Positions 3,574 to 39,535 of a DNA stretch of 64,000 bases are shown in pieces. The notes under the pieces are model-generated. The model saw nothing but the letters and a program-made list of their open reading frames with translations, was not told where the DNA came from and did no database searches. The stretch covers positions 1-64,000 of IMG/VR virus record IMGVR_UViG_3300037827_000415; one strand, given 5' to 3'. The translations under genes and the position numbers were made by a program. Numbering within the stretch: the first letter of the stretch is position 1; the number at the start of each line of letters is the position of its first letter. This DNA is from a virus.

Positions 3574-3592
3574 AAAAAGTCGAAAGGTCAAA
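3574..3592 (+). repeat. Start-associated motif AAAAAGTCGAAAGGTCAA (representative copy)
   Basis: Copies at 3284, 3574, 3805, 7772, 8406 and 10071, each a few nt before an ATG, plus one at 31784. Confidence 0.85.
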
Positions 3593-3784: not shown

Positions 3785-3823
3785 TCCGTTCTCTTTCCCC
3801 CACCAAAAAGTCGAAAGGTCAAA

Positions 3824-7751: not shown

Positions 7752-7792
7752 CGACGTGCGGGCAGTCAAATAAAAGTAGAAAGGTCACGGCG

Positions 7793-8999
7793 ATGGCAAA
7801 GAGAGAAATCCCGGTCGGGTCGCCCAATTCGATCGCACGCTACATCGCGAACACAGACTTCGGAGAAAACGGGTTCGCGACCTTTGCGTACCACGAAGGG
7901 ATGCCTCATGTCGTCGCGGCCGGCACCTACATGCATTGCATGGCCTACATGCAGCCCGGCTATTGCATTGTGGACGTGAAACGAGTCTGGATCGTCTGGC
8001 CGACTCGCGATCGCTTCACCGGAGAACTGGCCGAAGCCTATCCGGCACCGGAGTCCACGTAGCAATGCTGACCAAACAACACGTCGAAGAATTGCGAAAA
8101 CTGTTCTGCAAAACCACTCCCGGCATGTGGTCCGCCGATACGATTCAGGTTCGCGAAAACCGCTCGGCATACCGCGTGATGACGAATGCGAAGAGTCAGC
8201 CGATCTTCGATACGCTGAATAGCGAAGTTGCGGAAATCCATGAGGATGACGACTGCTACCGATGGGATGAAACTGGCCGGAACGATTTTGCATGGATTGA
8301 GCGAGTTCACAACGACTTTCCGGCAATTTTGCGGACGATCACGAATCTGATCGAAAAGGTCGCCGAACTGGAAGTGTTGCGTTCCGACAAATAATCAGGG
8401 TTCACAAAAAGTCGAAAGGTCAACCATGTCTCAAATCACTTCGCCCCTTTCCGCCGCCGAAATTCGCGGCATCAAGTGGGTTTTCCGTTGCTCCGACGTT
8501 CGCCTGACTGGCGACGTCGTTGAGGGCTACAGGCCGTTTGTCATGCTCGGCGTGTGCGGCGATTGGAAACCGCTGGGGAGCGTCGAATCCGTATTGCGGC
8601 GAGTCAAGGCGACGGTTGCGGCTCATGGCGGTTATTGCCCGTAGAAAGGATTCTGAGATGTGCGGCTATCCACTGCCTGACGGGCTCAAGTTGCTGGACT
8701 GTGAAGCCGGACGGTGCGACCACTGCGACGAACAGGCCGGGATTAGGGCGTTTGGGCTCGACTGGTGCCCAACTTGCTGGGACGAACTCTGTGAAGCCCG
8801 TCGCGGTTGTGGCTGCTCCGAATTTTGCGATCACACGATTGCCGAACTGGGCTGCTATTCAGTGTTCGGTCGCTTCCGGCCTCCGCCGCGGCCAATCGAG
8901 CCCGACCCGGTTGACGAGTATTACGACGAGCCAGGCGGCGGCTGGGACCAAGCGTGCGAGCGGGCCGATCTTCAACGCAAACGAGCGAAGGGAGAATAA
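7793..8999 (+). other. Small-gene cluster 2, part 1 (7793-8062, 8065-8394, 8426-8644, 8658-8999)
   Basis: Closely spaced ORFs; two are preceded by the start-associated motif; the last is Cys-rich. Confidence 0.65.
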
Positions 9000-26242: not shown

Positions 26243-28168
26243 CTAGGCGAACAGGACGCCTTGTTCAGTTTTTGAAGATACAGCTCTTTTGCAATTCTTG
26301 ATAGCGGCGTCGAAATATGATTCCTTTAGTTCGATTCCATAAAATCGCCTTTCCAACTGGATGGCGCTGTAGCCGGTGCTCCCCACGCCGCAAAAACAGT
26401 CCAGTACCAGTTCGCCGGGATTACTCCACAGCCGCACGCACCGCTCGCAAATGTCGAGCGGGAACGCACAGATATGCCGCGTGTCCTCTTCGTCCTTCGC
26501 TTCAAGCGTATTGAGCGTCCGCGACCAGCGGATATCCGACCAGCACGCTTCGGCCCAGTCAATCCACTGATTGCGGCTCACTTGGTTTTCGCTGTCGATC
26601 AGAACCGCATTCTCGCCCGGCTTGCGGAACTTGATGATGTAGTCCGGCAGACATGGGGCCGACTGCGAGCGATCGCGTTCAAGGCCGACGAATTGCAGGC
26701 GACGTGATCTTGTGCGAATCGCCTCGGAATTATGCGTGAGAATGCAGCTTTCCGTCGCGAACAGACCGTCCTCGGCTTCGACCGTGATGCACGTGCAAGG
26801 AAATTCGCCGATCTCTTCGATGGCAACGACAGCCCGCCTGAATCCCTTCTGCGGCGGAATCCACTTCGCGATCTTGTCCTTGAACCTGAACGGACATATT
26901 CCGTCTCGAAGACGCGGGGTCAACTCGTAAATCACTCTACCGAATCGCGTTTCGCCGTTGTGGTGATACTTGCTGCCCGCTCGTGCGATCTTTGTGCAGA
27001 TTCCGCCAAGCGACTCTACAAGAAACTTGAAGTCGTCAGCCAGACGCTCCGACGTTGTGTGGAACGCTACGCCGCCCTTCACCTTGTTTTTTCCGTCCGT
27101 ATCGAGCAGCCCCGCAATCAATAGTCGGCGGGACATTTCGTCCGCGAAAAGATAGGTCGGCGGGACGAACTTATCCCAAGCGTGCTTGCCTTCCAGTCCG
27201 AGCGACCGAATCGCGTGCAGGACGTCATTACGATGCCATTCCGGGCATGTGATGTTCCAGGTTGAAGCATCGTTGCCGCGCTCGGATCCGGGATTCAGCC
27301 GGAGGCTATGATTATGTGGAAGAGACAGGTTCTCTACGATTCCGCGTTGCGTGCAAATTTCGACAACGCCGCGTTTCGACAGGCAGCCATCACCAAGCAG
27401 TACGCCAAGCAGATATGGATCCAGCGGCAATTGCTTTGCGTTGAATTTTACGGCCCCGCCAATCGTCGGCAGGAAAAACTTCGCCGATCCGCTTGGCTGA
27501 AATAGCCCGCGACTCTTGATCTCCTCCGTCTTTAGTACGATTTGCCGCCTTTCTCCGTGAATTTGAGCGGTAGTCATCACTGACCAGAGATGGTTGCCGT
27601 CGCAGTCAACTGAAGACCCGTCGGACGTCGAGACGCGAAACAGCCTTCTCGTGCCTTGCGGCCACACGCCCACGACACGCGTCGGCTGACCAGAAGATCC
27701 GATCACTTGATCATTGATGGCGAGAGACTGAATCTCGCTCCATCCTTGAGGCGTCAAAACCCTCGATCCGTCTCGTAGAGCCTGCGGATTCTTTGAACAC
27801 ATGACTTCGCCGTCGTAAATGAATCCCGCTCGCTGGCCAAGGCGAATGTTGAGCCCGCGAAAGTCGTGAACGCCTTCGCCGCCCACTCGCTTCAGGCCGG
27901 GGATTTGCATGACGTGGCAAGCGAACACGCGGCCCGGCTTGAGTACGCGAAGGATCCTGCGATAGAAGAATGCAAGATGGACTTTGGACTCCGCCCCGTA
28001 GCTTTCGACGTTGCCGATGTCTGACTCGCTGTCGCTGTACGCGAACAATGCGGGGAAGGCCGGGCTGCACATGGCGAAATCGACTGACGATTCCGGCATG
28101 ACGCTCTCCATATGGGGGATAGCATCGCCGTGGTGGATGAAGAATTCTTCGCCTTCGGGAATCAGCAT
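26243..28168 (-). CDS. Beta-class N4C/N6A DNA methyltransferase containing an intein
   Basis: Motif IV variant SPAF, LRVLKPGR, HICAFP, motif I LDCFCGVGST; start overlaps the upstream TGA. Confidence 0.88.
   Translation of the reverse strand: MLIPEGEEFFIHHGDAIPHMESVMPESSVDFAMCSPAFPALFAYSDSESDIGNVESYGAESKVHLAFFYRRILRVLKPGRVFACHVMQIPGLKRVGGEGVHDFRGLNIRLGQRAGFIYDGEVMCSKNPQALRDGSRVLTPQGWSEIQSLAINDQVIGSSGQPTRVVGVWPQGTRRLFRVSTSDGSSVDCDGNHLWSVMTTAQIHGERRQIVLKTEEIKSRGLFQPSGSAKFFLPTIGGAVKFNAKQLPLDPYLLGVLLGDGCLSKRGVVEICTQRGIVENLSLPHNHSLRLNPGSERGNDASTWNITCPEWHRNDVLHAIRSLGLEGKHAWDKFVPPTYLFADEMSRRLLIAGLLDTDGKNKVKGGVAFHTTSERLADDFKFLVESLGGICTKIARAGSKYHHNGETRFGRVIYELTPRLRDGICPFRFKDKIAKWIPPQKGFRRAVVAIEEIGEFPCTCITVEAEDGLFATESCILTHNSEAIRTRSRRLQFVGLERDRSQSAPCLPDYIIKFRKPGENAVLIDSENQVSRNQWIDWAEACWSDIRWSRTLNTLEAKDEEDTRHICAFPLDICERCVRLWSNPGELVLDCFCGVGSTGYSAIQLERRFYGIELKESYFDAAIKNCKRAVSSKTEQGVLFA
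26729..27781 (-). mobile_element. 351-aa intein with LAGLIDADG endonuclease, class 3 signature
   Basis: Starts ALRDGSRVLTP, block B DGNHLW, LLGVLLGDG and IAGLLDTDG, block F CTCITV, ends LTHN followed by Ser. Confidence 0.9.
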
Positions 28169-28602
28169 CAGTCGCACCTTTCGCCAAAGCCTTCGCGTTC
28201 GTGAAACTGATAGTCGATTTTGTGGCCCGGAACGCCGCAGAGTCGTCCGCGGATTTCGTGCCATTCTTCCGAGTTTTCTTCGACGGTTTGCATTTTCAGG
28301 ATTGCGTCGCCGACTTCCGTATCCCGCACGACCCAGATTTCACGACCGCGATTGAACGGAAGGATCCGCACTTGCAATCCATACCGGTGGCCGACCTTCA
28401 GGCAAATATCAAAGACGACCTTGAACCATTCTTCCGACGGCCGGAACATCGCGGCTCGACATGCCCCGAGATAAATCTTCTCCGCTTCTCCGCTGACGAA
28501 TCCGGCCGCGAACACCGGAATTAAAGCCGGGTCCATGCCGGTGAATTGTTCAAGCCCAACTTTGTAAAGCGGGCCGCACGTCTGCGGTTTCAAAGTTGCC
28601 AT
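28168..28602 (-). CDS. Hypothetical protein
   Basis: 144 aa between helicase and methyltransferase. Confidence 0.65.
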   Translation of the reverse strand: MATLKPQTCGPLYKVGLEQFTGMDPALIPVFAAGFVSGEAEKIYLGACRAAMFRPSEEWFKVVFDICLKVGHRYGLQVRILPFNRGREIWVVRDTEVGDAILKMQTVEENSEEWHEIRGRLCGVPGHKIDYQFHEREGFGERCD

Positions 28603-30913: not shown

Positions 30914-31155
30914 GTCCGCACCGTACCGAATCTGCCGTGGGCGAGTCAAATTTTTTCGGAATTGTATACTTAACAAACCAAGCCAAGAAGGCAGATTGAC
31001 AGGCCAAAACAGCGCAACTTATGATGCTGCATGAGGTTTCGTTGTGGCATCACGACCAGAATTCATCAAAGATATTCGGGAACACGTCGGCCGGCTTTGT
31101 TCGTCGATTGATCGCGAACTCGTCGACGAAACTCAGCGTTTTTGCGACTGGTGGG

Positions 31156-31479
31156 TCAACTGCTACAAGCCGGATTCCACCTTGCAACCAAGTCGCCCAC
31201 CTCGGCGAGACGTTCCCGCTCATCGCCCCGATTGATGCGGGCTAAGATGTGGGTGGCCCCTTTCGCGATCGCGGCAGACTTTATGTCGCTCTCCCGCGTG
31301 CAGCAGTCTCTGAGCGAATCGCCTTGCCCAAAATAAAGCGATTCCCAGTGGCCCGGTTTCCATTCGAGTGCGAAAGCGAAGTTTCCCGGCTCATCGGCAA
31401 ACTCGTTGTCTAGCGGGTAAATCCAGTACTCATATTCCCTTCCGGATTCGCCCGGATAAATAACCACCGGTATAAGCAT
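31156..31479 (-). CDS. Degenerate GIY-YIG-like protein (IS passenger)
   Basis: PGNFAF...LYFGQGDSL...E.DL...NP.C pattern. Confidence 0.55.
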   Translation of the reverse strand: MLIPVVIYPGESGREYEYWIYPLDNEFADEPGNFAFALEWKPGHWESLYFGQGDSLRDCCTRESDIKSAAIAKGATHILARINRGDERERLAEVGDLVARWNPACSS

Positions 31480-31491
31480 TGAGCCGGGCCG

Positions 31492-31659
31492 TCACTTCTT
31501 CTTTTTCGTCCGCCGCTTTGCCTTCGCCTTAGGCTGGGGGACCGGCTCGGTACTAGCCCCGCCCGGCACTTGCAGGAACTTTTCGAGAGCGGTCTCGAAA
31601 GGCAGCGGGTGAAGAGAGATTTTCTTGCCGCGATCGGATTCCGGTTCCGGTTTCGTCAT
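31492..31659 (-). CDS. 55-aa basic protein (IS passenger)
   Basis: MTKPEPESDRGKKISLHPLPFETALEKFLQV...KAKRRTKKKK; below the ORF-track cutoff. Confidence 0.55.
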   Translation of the reverse strand: MTKPEPESDRGKKISLHPLPFETALEKFLQVPGGASTEPVPQPKAKAKRRTKKKK

Positions 31660-31715
31660 GCCGGCGATTGTAGCCGAAGGGGACGGATTGAATCCAATTT
31701 TTCGCCGCGCATCCC

Positions 31716-31744
31716 TTGACGCGCAAATGGGGCAGATCTAGGCT
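31716..31744 (+). promoter_or_regulatory. Sigma70-like promoter of the IS-borne RNA unit
   Basis: TTGACG-N17-TAGGCT. Confidence 0.6.
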
Positions 31745-31758
31745 GCCCGCAGTGCGGT

Positions 31759-31868
31759 AAAAAACCGCGTTTGATTCTGAGCGAAAGTCGAAAGGTCAAC
31801 ACGCTTGAGGCGTTCCCGAGCCTCAGGCGTGCCTTTACGTCTTGGCTCGGGATTGAACGCGGTTTTTT
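31759..31868 (+). ncRNA. Long hairpin leader RNA ending in a U-tract
   Basis: 31759-31782 pairs with 31845-31868 (24 bp including G.U); inner stem CACGCTTGAGGC/GCCTCAGGCGTG. Confidence 0.6.
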
Positions 31869-31905
31869 CGTTTCTAGAAGTGAGTTTTGCGGAGAGAAGA
31901 AAAAC

Positions 31906-32005
31906 GCCGGGGTGGCGGAATTGGTAGACGCATCGGCCTTGGAAGCCGACGGGGGCCTCTTGCTAAGGGATCACCCCCGTGCGGGTTCAAATCCCGTCCC
32001 CGGCA
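31906..32005 (+). tRNA. Atypical tRNA: anticodon TGG (Pro) on a class II, Leu-like body
   Basis: Acceptor GCCGGGG/CCCCGGC+A73; D arm GGCGGAATTGGTAGACGC; anticodon arm TCGGC-CTTGGAA-GCCGA; 31-nt variable arm; T arm GCGGG-TTCAAAT-CCCGT; CCA not encoded. Confidence 0.9.
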
Positions 32006-32145
32006 TTCTCATTGTAAAATGCGAGAACCGTCAGCGGCAAACTGACGGTTCTCCTGTTCGCCGTTAGGGGGCGAACCATGCCGTAAAGTCGCGCGCATGG
32101 TACCGCTCTCGGTTTTGACACACAAGACAAAACGGGACCGGGGCC

Positions 32146-32616
32146 ATGCCTCTCGTGAAATGCCGCGATTGCGGATATTTAGCTTCGCGCATCAAGGCTG
32201 ACAATTCGCCCGTGGAGGCGGTCAGTCGCGTTCGCGATGCGGGACAATTTAGTCTTCAAGAATCAAGAGAAGTTCTGTGTTACAGGGGCTTTTCTGGCTT
32301 TCCGGTCAACGGGACGCTAACAGATCGGCCGCTGGCAGTTGCTCTTGAAAAAGAAATCGCATGTCCTGAATTCACGGTTTGGCTCAAGGGCAAAACGCCA
32401 AAAGAGCACGAAGACATGAGCATCTTAGAAAAGGTACGGCAGGAATATAGACAGTCCCAAGAGGATGCCGAGCGGAAGGCAGACCAAAAGGCAGACGCGA
32501 GGGAACGCAAAGAGGACTCACGCCACTGGCGCACGTTTTGGCTAGCGGTCGCGGCCCTAGTCGCCTCCATTGCGATCGGCATTGCGAATTTCGCGTTCAC
32601 GCTATCGAGACGCTAA
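32146..32616 (+). CDS. Zn-ribbon protein with C-terminal TM (IS passenger)
   Basis: N-terminal CRDC; C-terminal FWLAVAALVASIAIGIANFAF. Confidence 0.65.
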   Translation: MPLVKCRDCGYLASRIKADNSPVEAVSRVRDAGQFSLQESREVLCYRGFSGFPVNGTLTDRPLAVALEKEIACPEFTVWLKGKTPKEHEDMSILEKVRQEYRQSQEDAERKADQKADARERKEDSRHWRTFWLAVAALVASIAIGIANFAFTLSRR

Positions 32617-32622
32617 TTCGCC

Positions 32623-33591
32623 TCACTGAATCCCGCCCCACAACTGATCGATGCCATCTCGCAGAATTGGCTGGCGATACATGAGACGTCGGCCAGCAAT
32701 GCCGTTGATTGCGACGTCCATTCGCTGCGAGTCCTTCATCTTTCGATTGTTCCAGCGGAAGCTGAATTCATCGACGTAGCGATGCAGGTGACGCTTGCCA
32801 ATCTGGTGGAACGTGCCGTAGTGACCACGCTTGAGCAACGCGAAAAAGCTTTCGGCCGTATTCGTCGTCACGAGCGTTTCGCCACCATTCGTCCTGCGGA
32901 CGTATTCACGCTGCTTGTGCAACGAGCGGTGATGGCCACCGGCAAACTCGCGGCCGACGTGGTTATAGAGCGGCACTTCATCGGTGAACAAAGTCGAGTT
33001 GCGATCGGCGTATTTGAACAACACTTCTCGCAGCGTCGATCCTTTCAGATCGTCAACCGGCGTTGCGTGGGCTCGGCCGCCACGTTCCACGAGCAACGCC
33101 ACTGCTTTTTTTGATGTGCCGCGTCCCGCCTTGCTGACGCCCCTGTACCGGGGCTTGCCGCCGACGTAAGTTTCGTCTGCTTCCAGCTCGCCCTTCAACG
33201 CTCCGGCCAGTGGCTCTTGCTTCATCGCGTACCGAATGCGATGGGCCATGAACCATGCGGTTTTGTAGGTCACGCCGAGCATCCGATGGAGCTGATGGGC
33301 CGACACTCCCTTTTTGCTCGCGGACATCAAATGCAGGGCCAGCAGCCAAATGCGAATCTTGATGTGCCCGCGTTCCATTACGGTTCCGACCGTCACCGTG
33401 AACTGCTTGCGGCACTTCGGATTCTTGCACTTGTAAACGCCGGGCCGCGTCGATTTTCCGGCCAGCTTGATCGACTCATTCGACATGCAATGCGGGCAGG
33501 CTCGACGCTCGCCATTCGCTCCCCAGCGGGTTGCCTCAAGATAATCGCGGGCCTCATCTTCTGTCAGCTTGCTGAGTTCGGCGAAATTCAT
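32623..33591 (-). CDS. IS1595-family (ISXO2-like) DDE transposase
   Basis: Zn ribbon CPHC..CKNPKC, HTH, EADETYVGG, TDE, TNTAESFF, YVDEFSFRWN. Confidence 0.95.
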   Translation of the reverse strand: MNFAELSKLTEDEARDYLEATRWGANGERRACPHCMSNESIKLAGKSTRPGVYKCKNPKCRKQFTVTVGTVMERGHIKIRIWLLALHLMSASKKGVSAHQLHRMLGVTYKTAWFMAHRIRYAMKQEPLAGALKGELEADETYVGGKPRYRGVSKAGRGTSKKAVALLVERGGRAHATPVDDLKGSTLREVLFKYADRNSTLFTDEVPLYNHVGREFAGGHHRSLHKQREYVRRTNGGETLVTTNTAESFFALLKRGHYGTFHQIGKRHLHRYVDEFSFRWNNRKMKDSQRMDVAINGIAGRRLMYRQPILRDGIDQLWGGIQ

Positions 33592-33665
33592 TGCGGGCTC
33601 CTTTGTTGACACCCGCATTATCGGTAATTACACTTGGTTTGTCAAGTATACAATTCCGAATTTTT

Positions 33666-35513
33666 TCAGTCGCCCAGTTCGTGCCCGTTCTTTTCCGCCC
33701 AATCGTCGCCGTCAAAGTCGAAGCTTGTGGCCGCACTGTCCATTGATGCCTCTGGCTTTTCCACGTGCAGTTTTTGCCGCGATGGCTCAAACCGGCATTT
33801 CACCGTGTGCTGATGCGTCGGCCGATTCTTGTTCTTCCCGATGAATACGAAGAATTCCTTTGGGTCGTGCTTCGCGTCGATCCGGTGCGGCCAAAGTAGG
33901 AATAAGATCACATCCGCGTCGCCCTCAATCTGCCCCGACTCACGAAGGTCCGACAGCTTTGGCTTGAACGTCTCCCGCTTCTCGACTTCTCGGCCAAGCT
34001 GGGCCAGTTCGATCATCAGCACTCCGGTTTCCGTGGCGATGTGCTTGAGCATCAGGCTGGTTTCGGTGACTTGCTCGTAGCGGCTGTTTTTCTTGCCGAG
34101 CAGCAGTTGCATGTAGTCCACGACTACGCAGCGAACGCCGTGATCGCGAACGTGCTGGCGGATCGACTCGCAGGCCCGTTGCGGCGTGCCGCAGTTCTCG
34201 ACGACGTAAATCGGGGCTCGCTCGTGAAAGTGGCCGTCCACGTCCTTGAGCACGTCCTCGGAACGGTGAACCCACGCCTCTTCATTGATCGGGGTTGAAT
34301 ACTGGATCGCCCGTTTGCCCAGCATTAGGCGGGACATTTCGTCTGAGATGATTAGGATCGGGTGTCCCTCTCCGGCAATGTTGTACGCCGCTTGAAGTGC
34401 GGTAGCCGATTTTGCATGGCTCGGCCTCGCCGCGATGATGACCACCTCCGGCGGCTGCACCCCGCCGCCGATGGCATAATCCACATCACCCAATCCAAGG
34501 CTGATGAGCCCTTGCTTCCCGTCCTTCAGGCTGGCCATGTATTCGCGGGCCGACTCGTACAGCGTGTTGGACGGCGGCGGTTCAGGCGGTGCCTCGTGCT
34601 GCGGGACTCTAACCCGGTCCCACTGCATCGGCTGGACGTTTTTTAAGTACCCTCGCTCTCCAGGCACCTTGTCGGCCTGCGAAAGTTTGTGGCGAATCTC
34701 CCGCTCGTTCCACGGCGGATCGCACAGATTGGACCACTCTGCCATGACCGCGTAGGCGTCAGGCTCAGTCAGGTCGAACCCGAGCATCAGCGTGCAGGCC
34801 ACGTGGAACGCCTTGTCGTGTCCCTTCTGTCCGCTCACCGCGATCGGCATCCGGGCGACGTACTTCCGGGCTCGTTCGACGATTGCCGGCTGGCCGTAGA
34901 AGTCTGTCGGGGCTGGTGACCCAAGAGTTTGCGGCTTGAACCACTCGGCACAATAGCGATTCAGGACCGCTTGCCGCTCCATCGGTTCTTTGGGGAACTT
35001 GCCCACTCGCTTGCCCGTGACGGCGAAGTATCGCAGATGGTCGTAGACTTCGATGCCCGGCTCTTTCTCGCCGACCGTGGCGACGCCTTCGACTTTGATT
35101 TTCTTGCCGGAGTCCATCGGGGCTTTCGCCCGAATGAACATTTTCGCCCCCGTGCCGCTGGGGCTGAGTTCGGTGTATGTGTTGAAGTCCGACATGATTT
35201 GCCGAGCCCAGTCGGCCCACTCGCCGGTTTCGAGGTTGCGGCAACCGTCCAGGTCGATGCCGCAGAATTCGTCTTCCGCGGTGAAGACGAATCCGATGCC
35301 CGACCATCGGCCGGTGATCCGATTGGCCGTGACGGCGGATTTGAAGTTGCACCAAGTCTGCGGATCATTCGACTTGGCTAACTGGCCAGAGAACACGCTG
35401 TATGGGAGCTTTGTCGGCTTGTCGCCGTCGCGGGTCACGATTGTCCAGACCAGCCACTGACGAAGTTCCTGTAACGCTGTCGGCACGCCTTCGGGACAGA
35501 CCTGGATCAGCAT
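33666..35513 (-). CDS. Primase-polymerase (AEP-like) fused to DnaB-like helicase
   Basis: GIDLDGC and ELSPSGTG at the N-terminus; VVDYMQL, AQLGR, SDLRESGQIEGDAD at the C-terminus. Confidence 0.9.
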   Translation of the reverse strand: MLIQVCPEGVPTALQELRQWLVWTIVTRDGDKPTKLPYSVFSGQLAKSNDPQTWCNFKSAVTANRITGRWSGIGFVFTAEDEFCGIDLDGCRNLETGEWADWARQIMSDFNTYTELSPSGTGAKMFIRAKAPMDSGKKIKVEGVATVGEKEPGIEVYDHLRYFAVTGKRVGKFPKEPMERQAVLNRYCAEWFKPQTLGSPAPTDFYGQPAIVERARKYVARMPIAVSGQKGHDKAFHVACTLMLGFDLTEPDAYAVMAEWSNLCDPPWNEREIRHKLSQADKVPGERGYLKNVQPMQWDRVRVPQHEAPPEPPPSNTLYESAREYMASLKDGKQGLISLGLGDVDYAIGGGVQPPEVVIIAARPSHAKSATALQAAYNIAGEGHPILIISDEMSRLMLGKRAIQYSTPINEEAWVHRSEDVLKDVDGHFHERAPIYVVENCGTPQRACESIRQHVRDHGVRCVVVDYMQLLLGKKNSRYEQVTETSLMLKHIATETGVLMIELAQLGREVEKRETFKPKLSDLRESGQIEGDADVILFLLWPHRIDAKHDPKEFFVFIGKNKNRPTHQHTVKCRFEPSRQKLHVEKPEASMDSAATSFDFDGDDWAEKNGHELGD

Positions 35514-39277: not shown

Positions 39278-39380
39278 CGTCACCGGCGGGGATCGAACCC
39301 GCATCACACGGTTGAGTTTGCACCCGGTTTCCCGGAGGTTTCTCCATGGCCGTGCATCCTACCAGTTAGACGAAAGTGAC
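39278..39380 (-). tRNA. tRNA-Glu-like RNA with a 38-nt anticodon loop
   Basis: GTCACTT/CGGTGAC+G; D stem GTCT/GGAT; anticodon stem CACGG/CCGTG; 4-nt variable loop; T arm GCGGG-TTCGATC-CCCGC. Confidence 0.75.
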
Positions 39381-39443: not shown

Positions 39444-39535
39444 AGTTTCCGGCTGGAGTCGAACCAGCACCTCACTCAATGACCACCGGATTCTCACCCG
39501 GATCGGCGTGCGTGCACCACTGGCACTACGGAAAC
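39444..39535 (-). tRNA. tRNA-like RNA with a 28-nt anticodon loop (isotype unassignable)
   Basis: GTTTCCG/CGGAAAC; D stem GTGC/GCAC; anticodon stem CACGC/GAGTG (one mismatch); T arm GCTGG-TTCGACT-CCAGC. Confidence 0.7.

What the first reader, a model, noticed from the sequence alone, without database searches (positions are those of the whole stretch)
31906..32005. tRNA with a leucine-type body and a proline (UGG) anticodon: candidate natural mistranslating tRNA
Seen: a well-formed 7/5 cloverleaf with anticodon loop CT-TGG-AA, G1-C72, A73, D region GGCGGAATTGGTAGACGC, A15 with U48, and a 31-nt variable arm (GGGGG/CCCCC stem plus inner hairpin). Established: bacterial tRNA-Pro is class I with C1-G72, and ProRS uses G72/A73. 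A15:U48, A73, this D-loop layout and a long variable arm are tRNA-Leu features, and bacterial LeuRS largely ignores the anticodon. Inference: it may be charged with Leu and decode CCA/CCN, causing Pro-to-Leu substitution, relieving proline stalling or acting as a toxin or decoy. All stems are intact, which argues against decay.
Basis: partly seen in the sequence, partly recalled or inferred. Interest (0 to 1): 0.9.

Follow-up and report, generated by a model that had tools for sequence, protein, structure and literature searches.

The report
Transposon tRNA: leucine body, proline anticodon
The odd tRNA is real, but it is the cargo of a 2.7-kb jumping gene that landed in a phage. Its proline anticodon matches two fixed codons in that element's own transposase gene, which suggests the transposon decodes part of its own gene with a private, probably leucine-carrying, tRNA.

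Summary
Observation confirmed. Window 31906-32005 (+) is an intact 7/5 cloverleaf tRNA (Rfam 60 bits) with a UGG anticodon, G1-C72, A73, A15/U48, a 31-nt variable arm and a D arm identical to E. coli tRNA-Leu.

It is not a phage gene proper. It lies inside a complete IS1595-family element (30957-33658) with 26-nt terminal inverted repeats and an 8-bp target duplication, AATTTTTT. The element inserted just after the phage DnaB stop codon.

Among 241 related transposase loci, about two dozen carry Leu-type tRNAs. The tRNA anticodon co-varies with the codon at two fixed transposase sites, P127 and P308 here (both CCA):
- UGG with CCA: 11/14 at site 1 and 13/14 at site 2.
- AGG or GGG with CCT, and CGG with CCG: 8/8.
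- CUA with an in-frame TAG, UUA with TAA and CCU with AGG, all at site 2.

Four other conserved proline columns match in only 2/51 cases.

The phage's own CCN codons sit at invariant prolines, so the phage itself is not recoded.

Best reading: an IS-borne tRNA, most likely charged by LeuRS, that decodes dedicated codons in its own transposase. Charging is inferred, not shown.

This scan reached similar readings on other genomes. I found no published description.

The parts
30949..30956 (.). Left copy of the 8-bp target-site duplication, AATTTTTT
   Evidence: Read; identical to 33659-33666. An 8-bp duplication is what I recall as typical of the IS1595 family.
30957..30982 (+). Left terminal inverted repeat of the IS (starts CGGAATTGTATACTT)
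   Evidence: the repeat finder pair I1: the reported arms, 30955-30982 and 33633-33660, are 28 nt and 96% complementary. I trim them to 26-nt repeats starting at 30957 and ending at 33658, because that placement gives an exact 8-bp duplication on both flanks. A contig self-match gave the hint. This is the only copy in the 82.9-kb contig.
31156..31479 (-). Passenger ORF of 107 aa, function unknown
   Evidence: ORF list. No Pfam or PHROG match. A 36%-identical ORF sits beside another IS1595 transposase in L243.
31760..31870 (+). 110-nt near-perfect hairpin ending in a T run, just upstream of the tRNA
   Evidence: MFE -72.1 kcal/mol, z -7.45, 0 of 200 shuffles fold as well; inverted repeat I3.
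31906..32005 (+). Class II Leu-type tRNA with UGG anticodon (31940-31942) and a 31-nt variable arm
   Evidence: Rfam 60 bits; own model R1 79.7 bits; covariation; D arm identical to E. coli tRNA-Leu.
32023..32053 (+). 12-bp perfect hairpin downstream of the tRNA, a possible 3' processing or termination signal
   Evidence: Inverted repeat I12, 100% complementary. It is not followed by a clear T run.
32146..32616 (+). Passenger ORF of 156 aa with a C-terminal hydrophobic segment, function unknown
   Evidence: ORF list; translation; no Pfam or PHROG match.
32623..33591 (-). IS1595-family transposase of 322 aa (Zn ribbon, HTH and DDE domains); start ATG at 33591, after AAAGGAG
   Evidence: Pfam DDE_Tnp_IS1595 at 7.7e-33 and Zn_ribbon_IS1595 at 3.4e-10. 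All 8,000 scored candidates were homologues at E <= 0.001, the named ones mostly from Planctomycetota MAGs. AF2 model pLDDT 76.6.
33211..33213 (-). Site 1: CCA codon for residue 127, in the linker between the DNA-binding and DDE domains; cognate to the cargo tRNA
   Evidence: Residue 127 is in coil in the AF2 model.
32668..32670 (-). Site 2: CCA codon for residue 308, at the start of the variable C-terminal tail; cognate to the cargo tRNA
   Evidence: Residues 306-322 have pLDDT below 50.
33633..33658 (-). Right terminal inverted repeat; it overlaps a promoter-like site (TTGACA-17-GATAAT) that points into the transposase gene
33659..33666 (.). Right copy of the target-site duplication, AATTTTTT; it overlaps the DnaB stop codon (33666-33668)
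   Evidence: Read.

Best explanation
The tRNA is the passenger of a complete, recently inserted 2,702-bp IS1595-family transposon (30957-33658) that landed in a soil phage. It belongs to a family of IS1595-borne tRNAs with a leucine-type body and non-leucine anticodons. Shown here: the element's ends and target duplication, the tRNA's cloverleaf and family, and the fact that the tRNA's anticodon co-varies with the codon at two fixed, structurally permissive positions of the element's own transposase (residues 127 and 308 here, both CCA). Inferred: the tRNA is transcribed and charged by the host LeuRS, which ignores the anticodon. It would then compete with host tRNA-Pro at those two sensor codons, so that part of the transposase carries Leu instead of Pro. 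In stop-codon relatives the equivalent outcome is read-through into a C-terminal tail. Transposase isoform or activity would thereby be tied to the amount of the element's own tRNA, for example as a copy-number or expression sensor. The direction of the effect (activating or inhibiting) is unknown. Misreading of host or phage CCA codons would be a side effect, not an adaptation of the phage.
For: 1. Transposon cargo. The 26-nt TIRs and the exact 8-bp duplication AATTTTTT bracket the tRNA and an intact IS1595 transposase. A Schlesneria MAG element, L137, has the same build: similar TIRs, TSD TTTCGTCA, 2,716 bp and a long-armed UGG tRNA inside.
2. Recurrent family. Covariance model R1 finds Leu-type tRNAs beside related transposases in 22 of 240 sampled loci from genomes, viral contigs and metagenomes. 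L012 and L116 add two more.
3. Codon-anticodon covariation. UGG elements have CCA at site 1 in 11/14 and at site 2 in 13/14, against backgrounds of 9% and 3.5% in unlinked relatives (binomial 1e-9 and 2e-18). GGG (L151) and AGG (L230, L381) elements have CCT at both sites. The CGG element (L377) has CCG at both. The CUA element L435 has an in-frame TAG at site 2 followed by 34 sense codons. The UUA element L290 has TAA at site 2, and the CCU element L175 has AGG there. Flanking synonymous positions differ freely and GC3 ranges from 0.30 to 0.85.
4. Internal control. Four other conserved Pro columns in the same genes match the cargo anticodon in 0/12, 1/14, 0/13 and 1/12 cases.
5. Leucine identity. 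A73 is present in 19/20 tRNAs, G1:C72 (or G:U) in 20/20, U48 is invariant and A15 nearly so, and the D arm is identical to E. coli tRNA-Leu. These are the E. coli LeuRS determinants, and the anticodon is not used (PMC9976931). The same body carries CUA, UUA and CCU anticodons, which ProRS cannot recognise, so an anticodon-blind synthetase is the parsimonious charger for the whole family.
6. Both sites lie in coil or low-confidence regions of the AF2 model, where a Pro/Leu swap or a change to the tail is tolerable. Unlinked relatives show Leu at site 1 in one small clade and I, V, L, T, A or P at site 2.
Against: No direct evidence of transcription, processing, charging or decoding. RNA-library contigs contain the locus, but contigs cannot show transcription. 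Site 1 is a conserved Pro, in any codon, in most unlinked relatives, so Leu is not needed there. ProRS reads G35/G36, and eukaryote- or archaeal-type ProRS enzymes depend little on the acceptor stem, so partial or full prolylation cannot be excluded. CCA is not clearly avoided elsewhere in UGG-linked transposases (13/107 against a background of about 9%). The zero cognate codons elsewhere in the AGG-, GGG- and CGG-linked genes (0/32) may reflect GC bias. Two CUA-linked elements (L172, L184) have CCA, not TAG, at both sites. TAA is a common natural stop at site 2, which weakens the L290 match. No strong promoter lies between the hairpin and the tRNA. The linked elements are related to each other, so the binomial P values overstate independence.
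Confidence: 0.6

Rival explanations
1. Remoulded proline tRNA. A tRNA of Leu descent is charged with proline by ProRS through G35/G36 and A73. The element carries it to control the speed of decoding at two pause-sensitive codons (domain linker and C-terminal end), without changing any amino acid.
For: G35, G36 and A73 are ProRS determinants, and some ProRS types ignore the acceptor stem. Site 1 is Pro in most unlinked relatives. Both sites are in flexible regions where the residue may not matter. The phage's CCN codons are true prolines. Other agents of this scan read long-armed UGG tRNAs in phage tRNA arrays as proline tRNAs.
Against: G72, G15:C48 and G37 are absent, and C1:G72 never appears in 20 relatives. 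The Leu-specific D loop and A15:U48 are conserved without an evident reason under this reading. The same body and the same site 2 are used with CUA/TAG, UUA/TAA and CCU/AGG pairs, which ProRS cannot serve. A Pro-for-Pro supply does not explain why only two codons per gene match.
Confidence: 0.2
2. Non-decoding tRNA-like RNA. The gene makes a structured RNA used as a decoy, an antisense regulator of the convergent transposase mRNA, or a processing or termination signal, and it never enters the ribosome.
For: The tRNA converges on the transposase gene, and in several relatives it lies 10-60 bp beyond the transposase stop codon. Position 37 is unconstrained and two members have C33. Mukai et al. 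suggested that some allo-tRNAs are not used in translation (PMC5389517).
Against: Codon-anticodon covariation across seven anticodon classes is what decoding predicts, not antisense pairing. tRNA position and orientation relative to the transposase vary between elements (upstream in L153, L157, L234). All stems and T-loop and D-loop tertiary bases are conserved with compensatory changes.
Confidence: 0.08
3. Phage-adaptive tRNA. The phage keeps the gene to supply a rare CCA decoder or to escape host tRNA-cleaving defences.
For: The tRNA lies on an 83-kb phage contig. CCA makes up 14% of the phage's Pro codons.
Against: The gene sits inside an IS with intact TIRs and TSD inserted between DnaB and the next gene. 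The same tRNA-transposase module occurs in bacterial MAGs of several phyla. No empty-site variant or phage relative carrying the tRNA was found.
Confidence: 0.04
4. Sporadic anticodon mutation or decaying pseudogene of a tRNA-Leu.
For: UGG is one substitution away from the UAG anticodon.
Against: Fourteen further tRNAs next to related transposases keep UGG, with diverse stem sequences and compensatory changes. The loop has A37, not the G37 I would expect in a CUN-reading tRNA-Leu. All stems are intact.
Confidence: 0.02

Closest known systems
Nematode nev-tRNAs (Hamashima et al. 2012, PMC3333845; 2015, PMC4300185)
   Same: Class II, long-variable-arm tRNAs with non-Leu, non-Ser anticodons. They are charged with leucine in vitro because LeuRS ignores the anticodon (abstracts).
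   Different: They are eukaryotic chromosomal genes with Gly or Ile anticodons. They are not on a mobile element, and no matched codons in a partner gene are known.
Allo-tRNAs and 'polycistrons of irregular tRNAs' (Mukai et al. 2017, PMC5389517)
   Same: Bacterial and metagenomic long-armed tRNAs with many non-cognate anticodons, proposed as missense or nonsense suppressors. [quoted passage not shown]
   Different: Allo-tRNAs are defined by 8/4 or 9/3 acceptor/T arrangements, whereas this tRNA is 7/5. A text search of the paper found no UGG, proline or LeuRS, two passing mentions of transposon-related elements and no codon coupling; I did not search it for IS1595 by name.
Phage-encoded suppressor tRNAs in stop-codon-recoded phages (from my own knowledge: crAss-like and other recoded phages)
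   Same: A mobile genetic element carries a tRNA that reads a codon used in a special way in its own genes. The L435 relative has a CUA tRNA and an in-frame TAG in its transposase.
   Different: In those phages stop codons are recoded across many late genes. Here one or two codons of a single gene are involved, mostly sense (Pro) codons, on a 2.7-kb transposon.
bldA tRNA-Leu(UAA) and TTA codons in Streptomyces (from my own knowledge)
   Same: Expression of particular genes is tied to one tRNA through rare codons kept at defined places.
   Different: bldA is a correctly matched chromosomal Leu tRNA. It involves no identity mismatch and no mobile element.
Streptomyces tRNA-ProA / ProRSx deliberate mistranslation system (from my own knowledge: Vargas-Rodriguez et al. 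2021)
   Same: A natural bacterial tRNA whose anticodon and amino-acid identity disagree.
   Different: That system has a Pro body with an Ala anticodon and a dedicated synthetase. Here the body is Leu-type with a Pro anticodon, no synthetase is carried, and the gene is IS-borne.

Membership tests
Bacterial tRNA-Leu (LeuRS substrate, E. coli identity set) | Discriminator A73 | tested here: met
   A at 32005; A73 in 19 of 20 relatives; identity set from PMC9976931.
Bacterial tRNA-Leu (LeuRS substrate, E. coli identity set) | A15:U48 Levitt pair, G18G19 and Leu-type D-loop layout | tested here: met
   Positions 5-26 are identical to annotated E. coli tRNA-Leu. U48 is invariant and A15 nearly invariant in the family.
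Bacterial tRNA-Leu (LeuRS substrate, E. coli identity set) | Leucine anticodon (NAG or YAA) | tested here: not met
   The anticodon is UGG. It is therefore not a tRNA-Leu isoacceptor in the decoding sense.
Bacterial tRNA-Leu (LeuRS substrate, E. coli identity set) | Actual leucylation | not testable with these tools
   Needs an aminoacylation assay or mass spectrometry.
Bacterial tRNA-Pro | G35 and G36 in the anticodon, plus A73 | tested here: met
   UGG anticodon and A73.
Bacterial tRNA-Pro | C1:G72, G15:C48 and G37 (E. coli set), with a class I short variable loop | tested here: not met
   G1:C72, A15:U48, A37 and a 31-nt variable arm. C1:G72 is absent in all 20 relatives. Identity set.
IS1595-family insertion sequence | DDE_Tnp_IS1595 transposase with an N-terminal zinc ribbon | tested here: met
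   Pfam PF12762 at 7.7e-33 and PF12760 at 3.4e-10.
IS1595-family insertion sequence | Terminal inverted repeats and an 8-bp target-site duplication | tested here: met
   26-nt TIRs with one mismatch, trimmed from the 28-nt arms; AATTTTTT on both flanks.
Allo-tRNA (Mukai et al. 2017) | 12-bp acceptor branch arranged 8/4 or 9/3 | tested here: not met
   7-bp acceptor and 5-bp T stem here and in all 20 relatives. Definition from PMC5389517.
Mobile-element tRNA that decodes dedicated codons in the element's own gene (phage suppressor-tRNA logic) | Cargo anticodon matches special codons kept in the element's own coding sequence | tested here: met
   Sites 1 and 2 match in 15/17 and 15/15 Pro-anticodon elements, against 2/51 at control Pro columns. 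TAG, TAA and AGG cases at site 2.
Mobile-element tRNA that decodes dedicated codons in the element's own gene (phage suppressor-tRNA logic) | Demonstrated decoding of those codons by the cargo tRNA | not testable with these tools
   Needs a reporter assay or proteomics.

The most novel reading that the evidence does not exclude
A widespread family of IS1595 transposons runs a private genetic code. Each element carries a leucine-charged tRNA whose anticodon, whether sense (Pro, Arg) or stop (amber, ochre), is kept matched to one or two sensor codons in its own transposase. The dose of the element's tRNA then sets which transposase isoform is made, giving self-measurement of copy number or activity. 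As a by-product, the element spreads missense and nonsense suppression horizontally among bacteria of many phyla and their phages.
Probability: 0.4. Interest if true: 0.95.

Novelty: new variant of a known kind. Interest (0 to 1): 0.85.

Why it matters
Natural tRNAs whose body and anticodon disagree are rare and mostly of unknown use. Here the mismatch comes with a built-in clue to function. The element's own transposase keeps the matching codon at two fixed places, and the codon changes whenever the anticodon changes, including to stop codons.

If the tRNA inserts leucine, this would be:
- sense-codon reassignment confined to a single gene of a transposon;
- a new way for a selfish element to regulate itself;
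- a vehicle that moves code-altering tRNAs between bacteria and phages.

It would also supply natural, portable Leu-type tRNA scaffolds with arbitrary anticodons and variable arms of up to 31 nt, which are of interest for genetic-code engineering.

Tried and rejected
- ARAGORN finds no tRNA in the window or the contig at default settings.
- No DNA match to the tRNA in the phage or plasmid collections.
- A first search for terminal repeats within 31000-34200 and a local alignment of the right end against 31380-32160 found nothing, because the left end lies at 30957.
- The DnaB single-protein scan of viral contigs found nothing. The profile scan gave only relatives at 44% identity or less, so no empty-site phage was obtained.
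- The metagenome scan returned no relative above 54% identity.
- Laying contigs of four runs showed no joint that skips the IS. Presence in RNA-library contigs cannot show transcription.
- No region of the window is complementary to the anticodon arm.
- Phage-wide recoding of CCN to Leu is rejected: CCA and CCG codons of DnaB sit at columns that are 97-100% Pro in 120 homologues.
- Avoidance of the cognate codon elsewhere in the transposase is not established. For CCA it is 13/107 against a background of about 9%. The 0/32 in the AGG-, GGG- and CGG-linked genes may be GC bias.
- The AF2 model places both sites in flexible regions, so it cannot say whether Pro or Leu fits better.
- The many TGA, TTA, TTG and TTT 'anticodons' in the broad pattern scan appear to be intron-interrupted tRNA-Leu(UAA) genes, judged by eye from the printed sequences, not odd tRNAs.
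- Literature searches for IS1595 with tRNA cargo, and for tRNA-Leu bodies with proline anticodons in bacteria, found nothing relevant. The library is incomplete.

Full report
OBSERVATION

The Rfam tRNA model matches window 31906-32005 (+) end to end at 60 bits. ARAGORN reports nothing at default settings; I assume the 31-nt variable region is the reason. The sequence gives:
- a 7-bp acceptor stem with G1-C72, A73 and no encoded CCA;
- a 3-bp D stem with the D loop of bacterial tRNA-Leu;
- an anticodon loop C-U-UGG-A-A, with the anticodon at 31940-31942 and A37;
- a variable region of 31 nt, with a GGGGG/CCCCC stem enclosing a second small hairpin;
- U48 and a normal T arm.

Positions 5-26 are 100% identical to annotated tRNA-Leu genes in all 5,426 complete E. 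coli genomes.

CONTEXT

The window belongs to a virus record. This is a single 82,866-bp contig of 58.7% G+C that encodes a major head protein, a head decoration protein, a protein with a weak match to a tail-protein family, RecT, a RecE-like exonuclease, a DnaB-type helicase, an SNF2 helicase and a DNA methylase. This is the only tRNA the Rfam scan of the window or ARAGORN on the contig reports.

Next to it lies an IS1595-family transposase (32623-33591, minus strand; Pfam PF12762 at 7.7e-33 and PF12760 at 3.4e-10). A contig self-match pointed to inverted repeats outside my first search range. The repeat finder then reported arms 30955-30982 and 33633-33660 (28 nt, 96% complementary).

Reading the flanks places the element ends at 30957 and 33658, giving 26-nt repeats with an exact 8-bp direct repeat, AATTTTTT, on both sides. 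The right copy overlaps the DnaB stop codon. The tRNA is therefore the cargo of a complete 2,702-bp transposon that inserted into a short intergenic gap of the phage. The element also holds two small ORFs of unknown function and a very stable 110-nt hairpin just upstream of the tRNA (-72 kcal/mol, z -7.45). It is present once in the contig.

THE FAMILY

A pattern scan of viral contigs for a Leu-type D arm followed by a CTTGGAA loop returned six real class II tRNAs with UGG among 20 hits. The scan's earlier notes suggested a transposon link, which I tested independently.

I fetched 80 genomic, 80 viral and 80 metagenomic loci that encode relatives of the transposase at 41-54% identity. From 20 tRNAs I built covariance model R1. 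Their alignment supports the cloverleaf: 97.8% of cells are paired, 17 of 20 pairs carry compensatory changes and 0 of 500 shuffles reach this.

R1 finds Leu-type tRNAs beside the transposase in 22 of the 240 loci. They come from Planctomycetota, Acidobacteriota, Actinomycetota, Alphaproteobacteria, Anaerolineales and other MAGs as well as viral contigs. Two of the pattern-scan tRNAs (L012, L116) also sit beside a transposase relative.

Anticodons found:
- UGG: 13 Leu-type tRNAs besides this one, plus one class I tRNA (L400);
- AGG (2), GGG (1), CGG (1);
- CUA (3), UUA (1), CCU (1), and a few others.

Four relatives share the unusually long variable arm of 29-31 nt (L116, L137, L159, L234). 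The L159 arm is visibly homologous to the one here.

In L137 (a Schlesneria MAG), similar terminal repeats and an 8-bp duplication, TTTCGTCA, enclose the transposase and the tRNA in a 2,716-bp element.

CODON-ANTICODON COUPLING

I aligned all 241 transposases codon by codon. Two columns stand out. Site 1 is residue 127 here, in the linker after the HTH helix (motif E-P-L/M). Site 2 is residue 308, where the conserved core ends and a variable tail begins.

| Cargo anticodon | Site 1 | Site 2 |
|---|---|---|
| UGG (14 evaluable at each site) | CCA in 11/14 | CCA in 13/14 |
| GGG (L151) | CCT | CCT |
| AGG (L230, L381) | CCT | CCT |
| CGG (L377) | CCG | CCG |
| CUA (L435) | not matched | in-frame TAG, then 34 sense codons |
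| UUA (L290) | not matched | TAA, then a short frame sharing an R-N-Q motif with L435 |
| CCU (L175) | not matched | AGG |

- In unlinked relatives CCA occupies 9% of site 1 and 3.5% of site 2.
- Neighbouring synonymous positions vary freely, and GC3 of the linked genes ranges from 0.30 to 0.85.
- As an internal control, four other conserved proline columns in the same genes match the cargo anticodon in only 2 of 51 cases.
- Binomial probabilities are 1e-9 for site 1, 2e-18 for site 2 and 1e-5 for the three non-UGG Pro lineages. They ignore relatedness, but the control columns share that relatedness.
- Exceptions: L188; two CUA elements with CCA at both sites; and the fact that TAA is a common natural stop at site 2.

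WHICH AMINO ACID?

This step is inferred, not shown.

For leucine:
- The E. coli LeuRS determinants (A73, A15:U48, G18G19, D-loop layout; anticodon irrelevant; PMC9976931) are all present and conserved across the family.
- The acceptor and core ProRS determinants (G72, G15:C48, G37) are absent, and C1:G72 never occurs.
- The same body serves amber, ochre and Arg anticodons at the same site 2. Only an anticodon-blind enzyme can charge all of them.

For proline, or neutral:
- G35/G36 are the main ProRS determinants, and some ProRS types depend little on the acceptor stem.
- Site 1 is Pro, in any codon, in most unlinked relatives. Leu occurs there in one small clade.
- Site 2 is I, T, A, P, V or L in relatives.
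- An AF2 model (pLDDT 76.6) puts residue 127 in coil and residues 306-322 below pLDDT 50. Either residue is tolerable, and the fold cannot decide.

The phage itself is not recoded. In DnaB, CCA and CCG codons sit at columns that are 97-100% Pro in 120 homologues. The phage has 151 CCA codons.

MECHANISM

The best-supported reading is that the transposon's tRNA decodes dedicated sensor codons in its own transposase. With a Leu charge it would compete with host tRNA-Pro and produce a Leu variant. In stop-codon relatives it would produce a read-through tail.

This ties the transposase isoform to the amount of the element's own tRNA. Whether it activates or restrains transposition is unknown. The natural Pro at site 1, and natural termination near site 2 in relatives, would fit a restraining copy-number-sensing role, but that is speculation.

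Rivals are:
- a Pro-charged tRNA used to tune decoding speed;
- a non-decoding RNA;
- a phage-adaptive tRNA;
- a sporadic mutation.

The last two are contradicted by the transposon structure and the family data.

COMPARISON WITH WHAT IS KNOWN

- Nev-tRNAs are the nearest in mechanism: class II tRNAs with non-Leu anticodons, leucylated in vitro (PMC3333845).
- Allo-tRNAs are the nearest bacterial phenomenon, but they are defined by 8/4 or 9/3 structures. A text search of the paper found no UGG, proline or LeuRS and only two passing mentions of transposon-related elements.
- Phage suppressor tRNAs with recoded genes share the logic of an element decoding its own special codons.

Searches of the held literature found no report of IS1595 elements with tRNA cargo or of this coupling. 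The library is incomplete. Other agents of this scan reached similar readings on other genomes. My tests here are independent of theirs, but they are not independent discoveries.

LIMITS

There is no expression or charging data. No empty-site phage was found. The statistics are not phylogenetically corrected.

Noticed in passing
window 31760-31870; also 3576-3592, 3807-3823, 7773-7789 and 8408-8424: The IS-borne 110-nt hairpin upstream of the tRNA contains a 17-mer (AAAGTCGAAAGGTCAAC). The same 17-mer recurs exactly at 8408, with one mismatch at 3576 and 3807, and with three mismatches at 7773, all in the phage backbone. That is 5 matches against 0.12 expected. It suggests either exchange between the IS and the phage or a shared regulatory motif.
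   Followed up: partly
window 39444-39535 (-) and 39278-39350 (-): Two further tRNA-like sequences hit my Leu-type model R1 at 33 bits and 15 bits, but no Rfam family matches at a meaningful score.
   Followed up: partly
window 26243-28264 (-): The DNA methylase ORF (N6_N4_Mtase) also carries weaker LAGLIDADG and Hint-domain matches, the Hint match below Pfam's cut-off. The methylase may be interrupted by an intein with a homing endonuclease.
   Followed up: no
L081, L088, L112, L115 (GUG anticodon); L028, L043, L070, L087, L121 (GUU anticodon): Viral contigs hold tRNAs with a Leu-like D arm and long variable arms but His or Asn anticodons. Their acceptor ends look His-like (extra 5' G, C73) or Asn-like (G73). 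Class II-shaped versions of normally class I tRNAs seem common in phages.
   Followed up: no
L172 3375-3443, L184 3374-3442, L176 3368-3437, L249 4452-4524: Irregular tRNA-like sequences of about 70 nt have reduced D arms and CUGG-containing anticodon loops (8-membered in L172). In L172 and L184 they sit beside the CUA tRNA. The transposases of L172, L184 and L249 have CCA at both special sites, and L176 has CCA at site 2.
   Followed up: partly
L175 transposase, codons 20 and 22: The CCU-linked element has an in-frame TAG at codon 20. Its only other AGG codon falls at a conserved Arg (R22). This is either decay or a second decoding event. A class I tRNA with a GCU anticodon lies nearby.
   Followed up: no
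L264 4761-4844 and its transposase: This Leu-type tRNA has the loop CTGGAAA, which looks like a UGG loop that has lost one U. Its transposase has CCG at site 1 and TTA (Leu) at site 2. It may be a lineage that lost the tRNA function and fixed a true Leu codon.
   Followed up: partly
window 31156-31479 (-) and L243 4702-4992: The 107-aa passenger ORF of the IS has a 36%-identical counterpart just downstream of another IS1595 transposase, so it may be a recurrent passenger of unknown function.
   Followed up: partly
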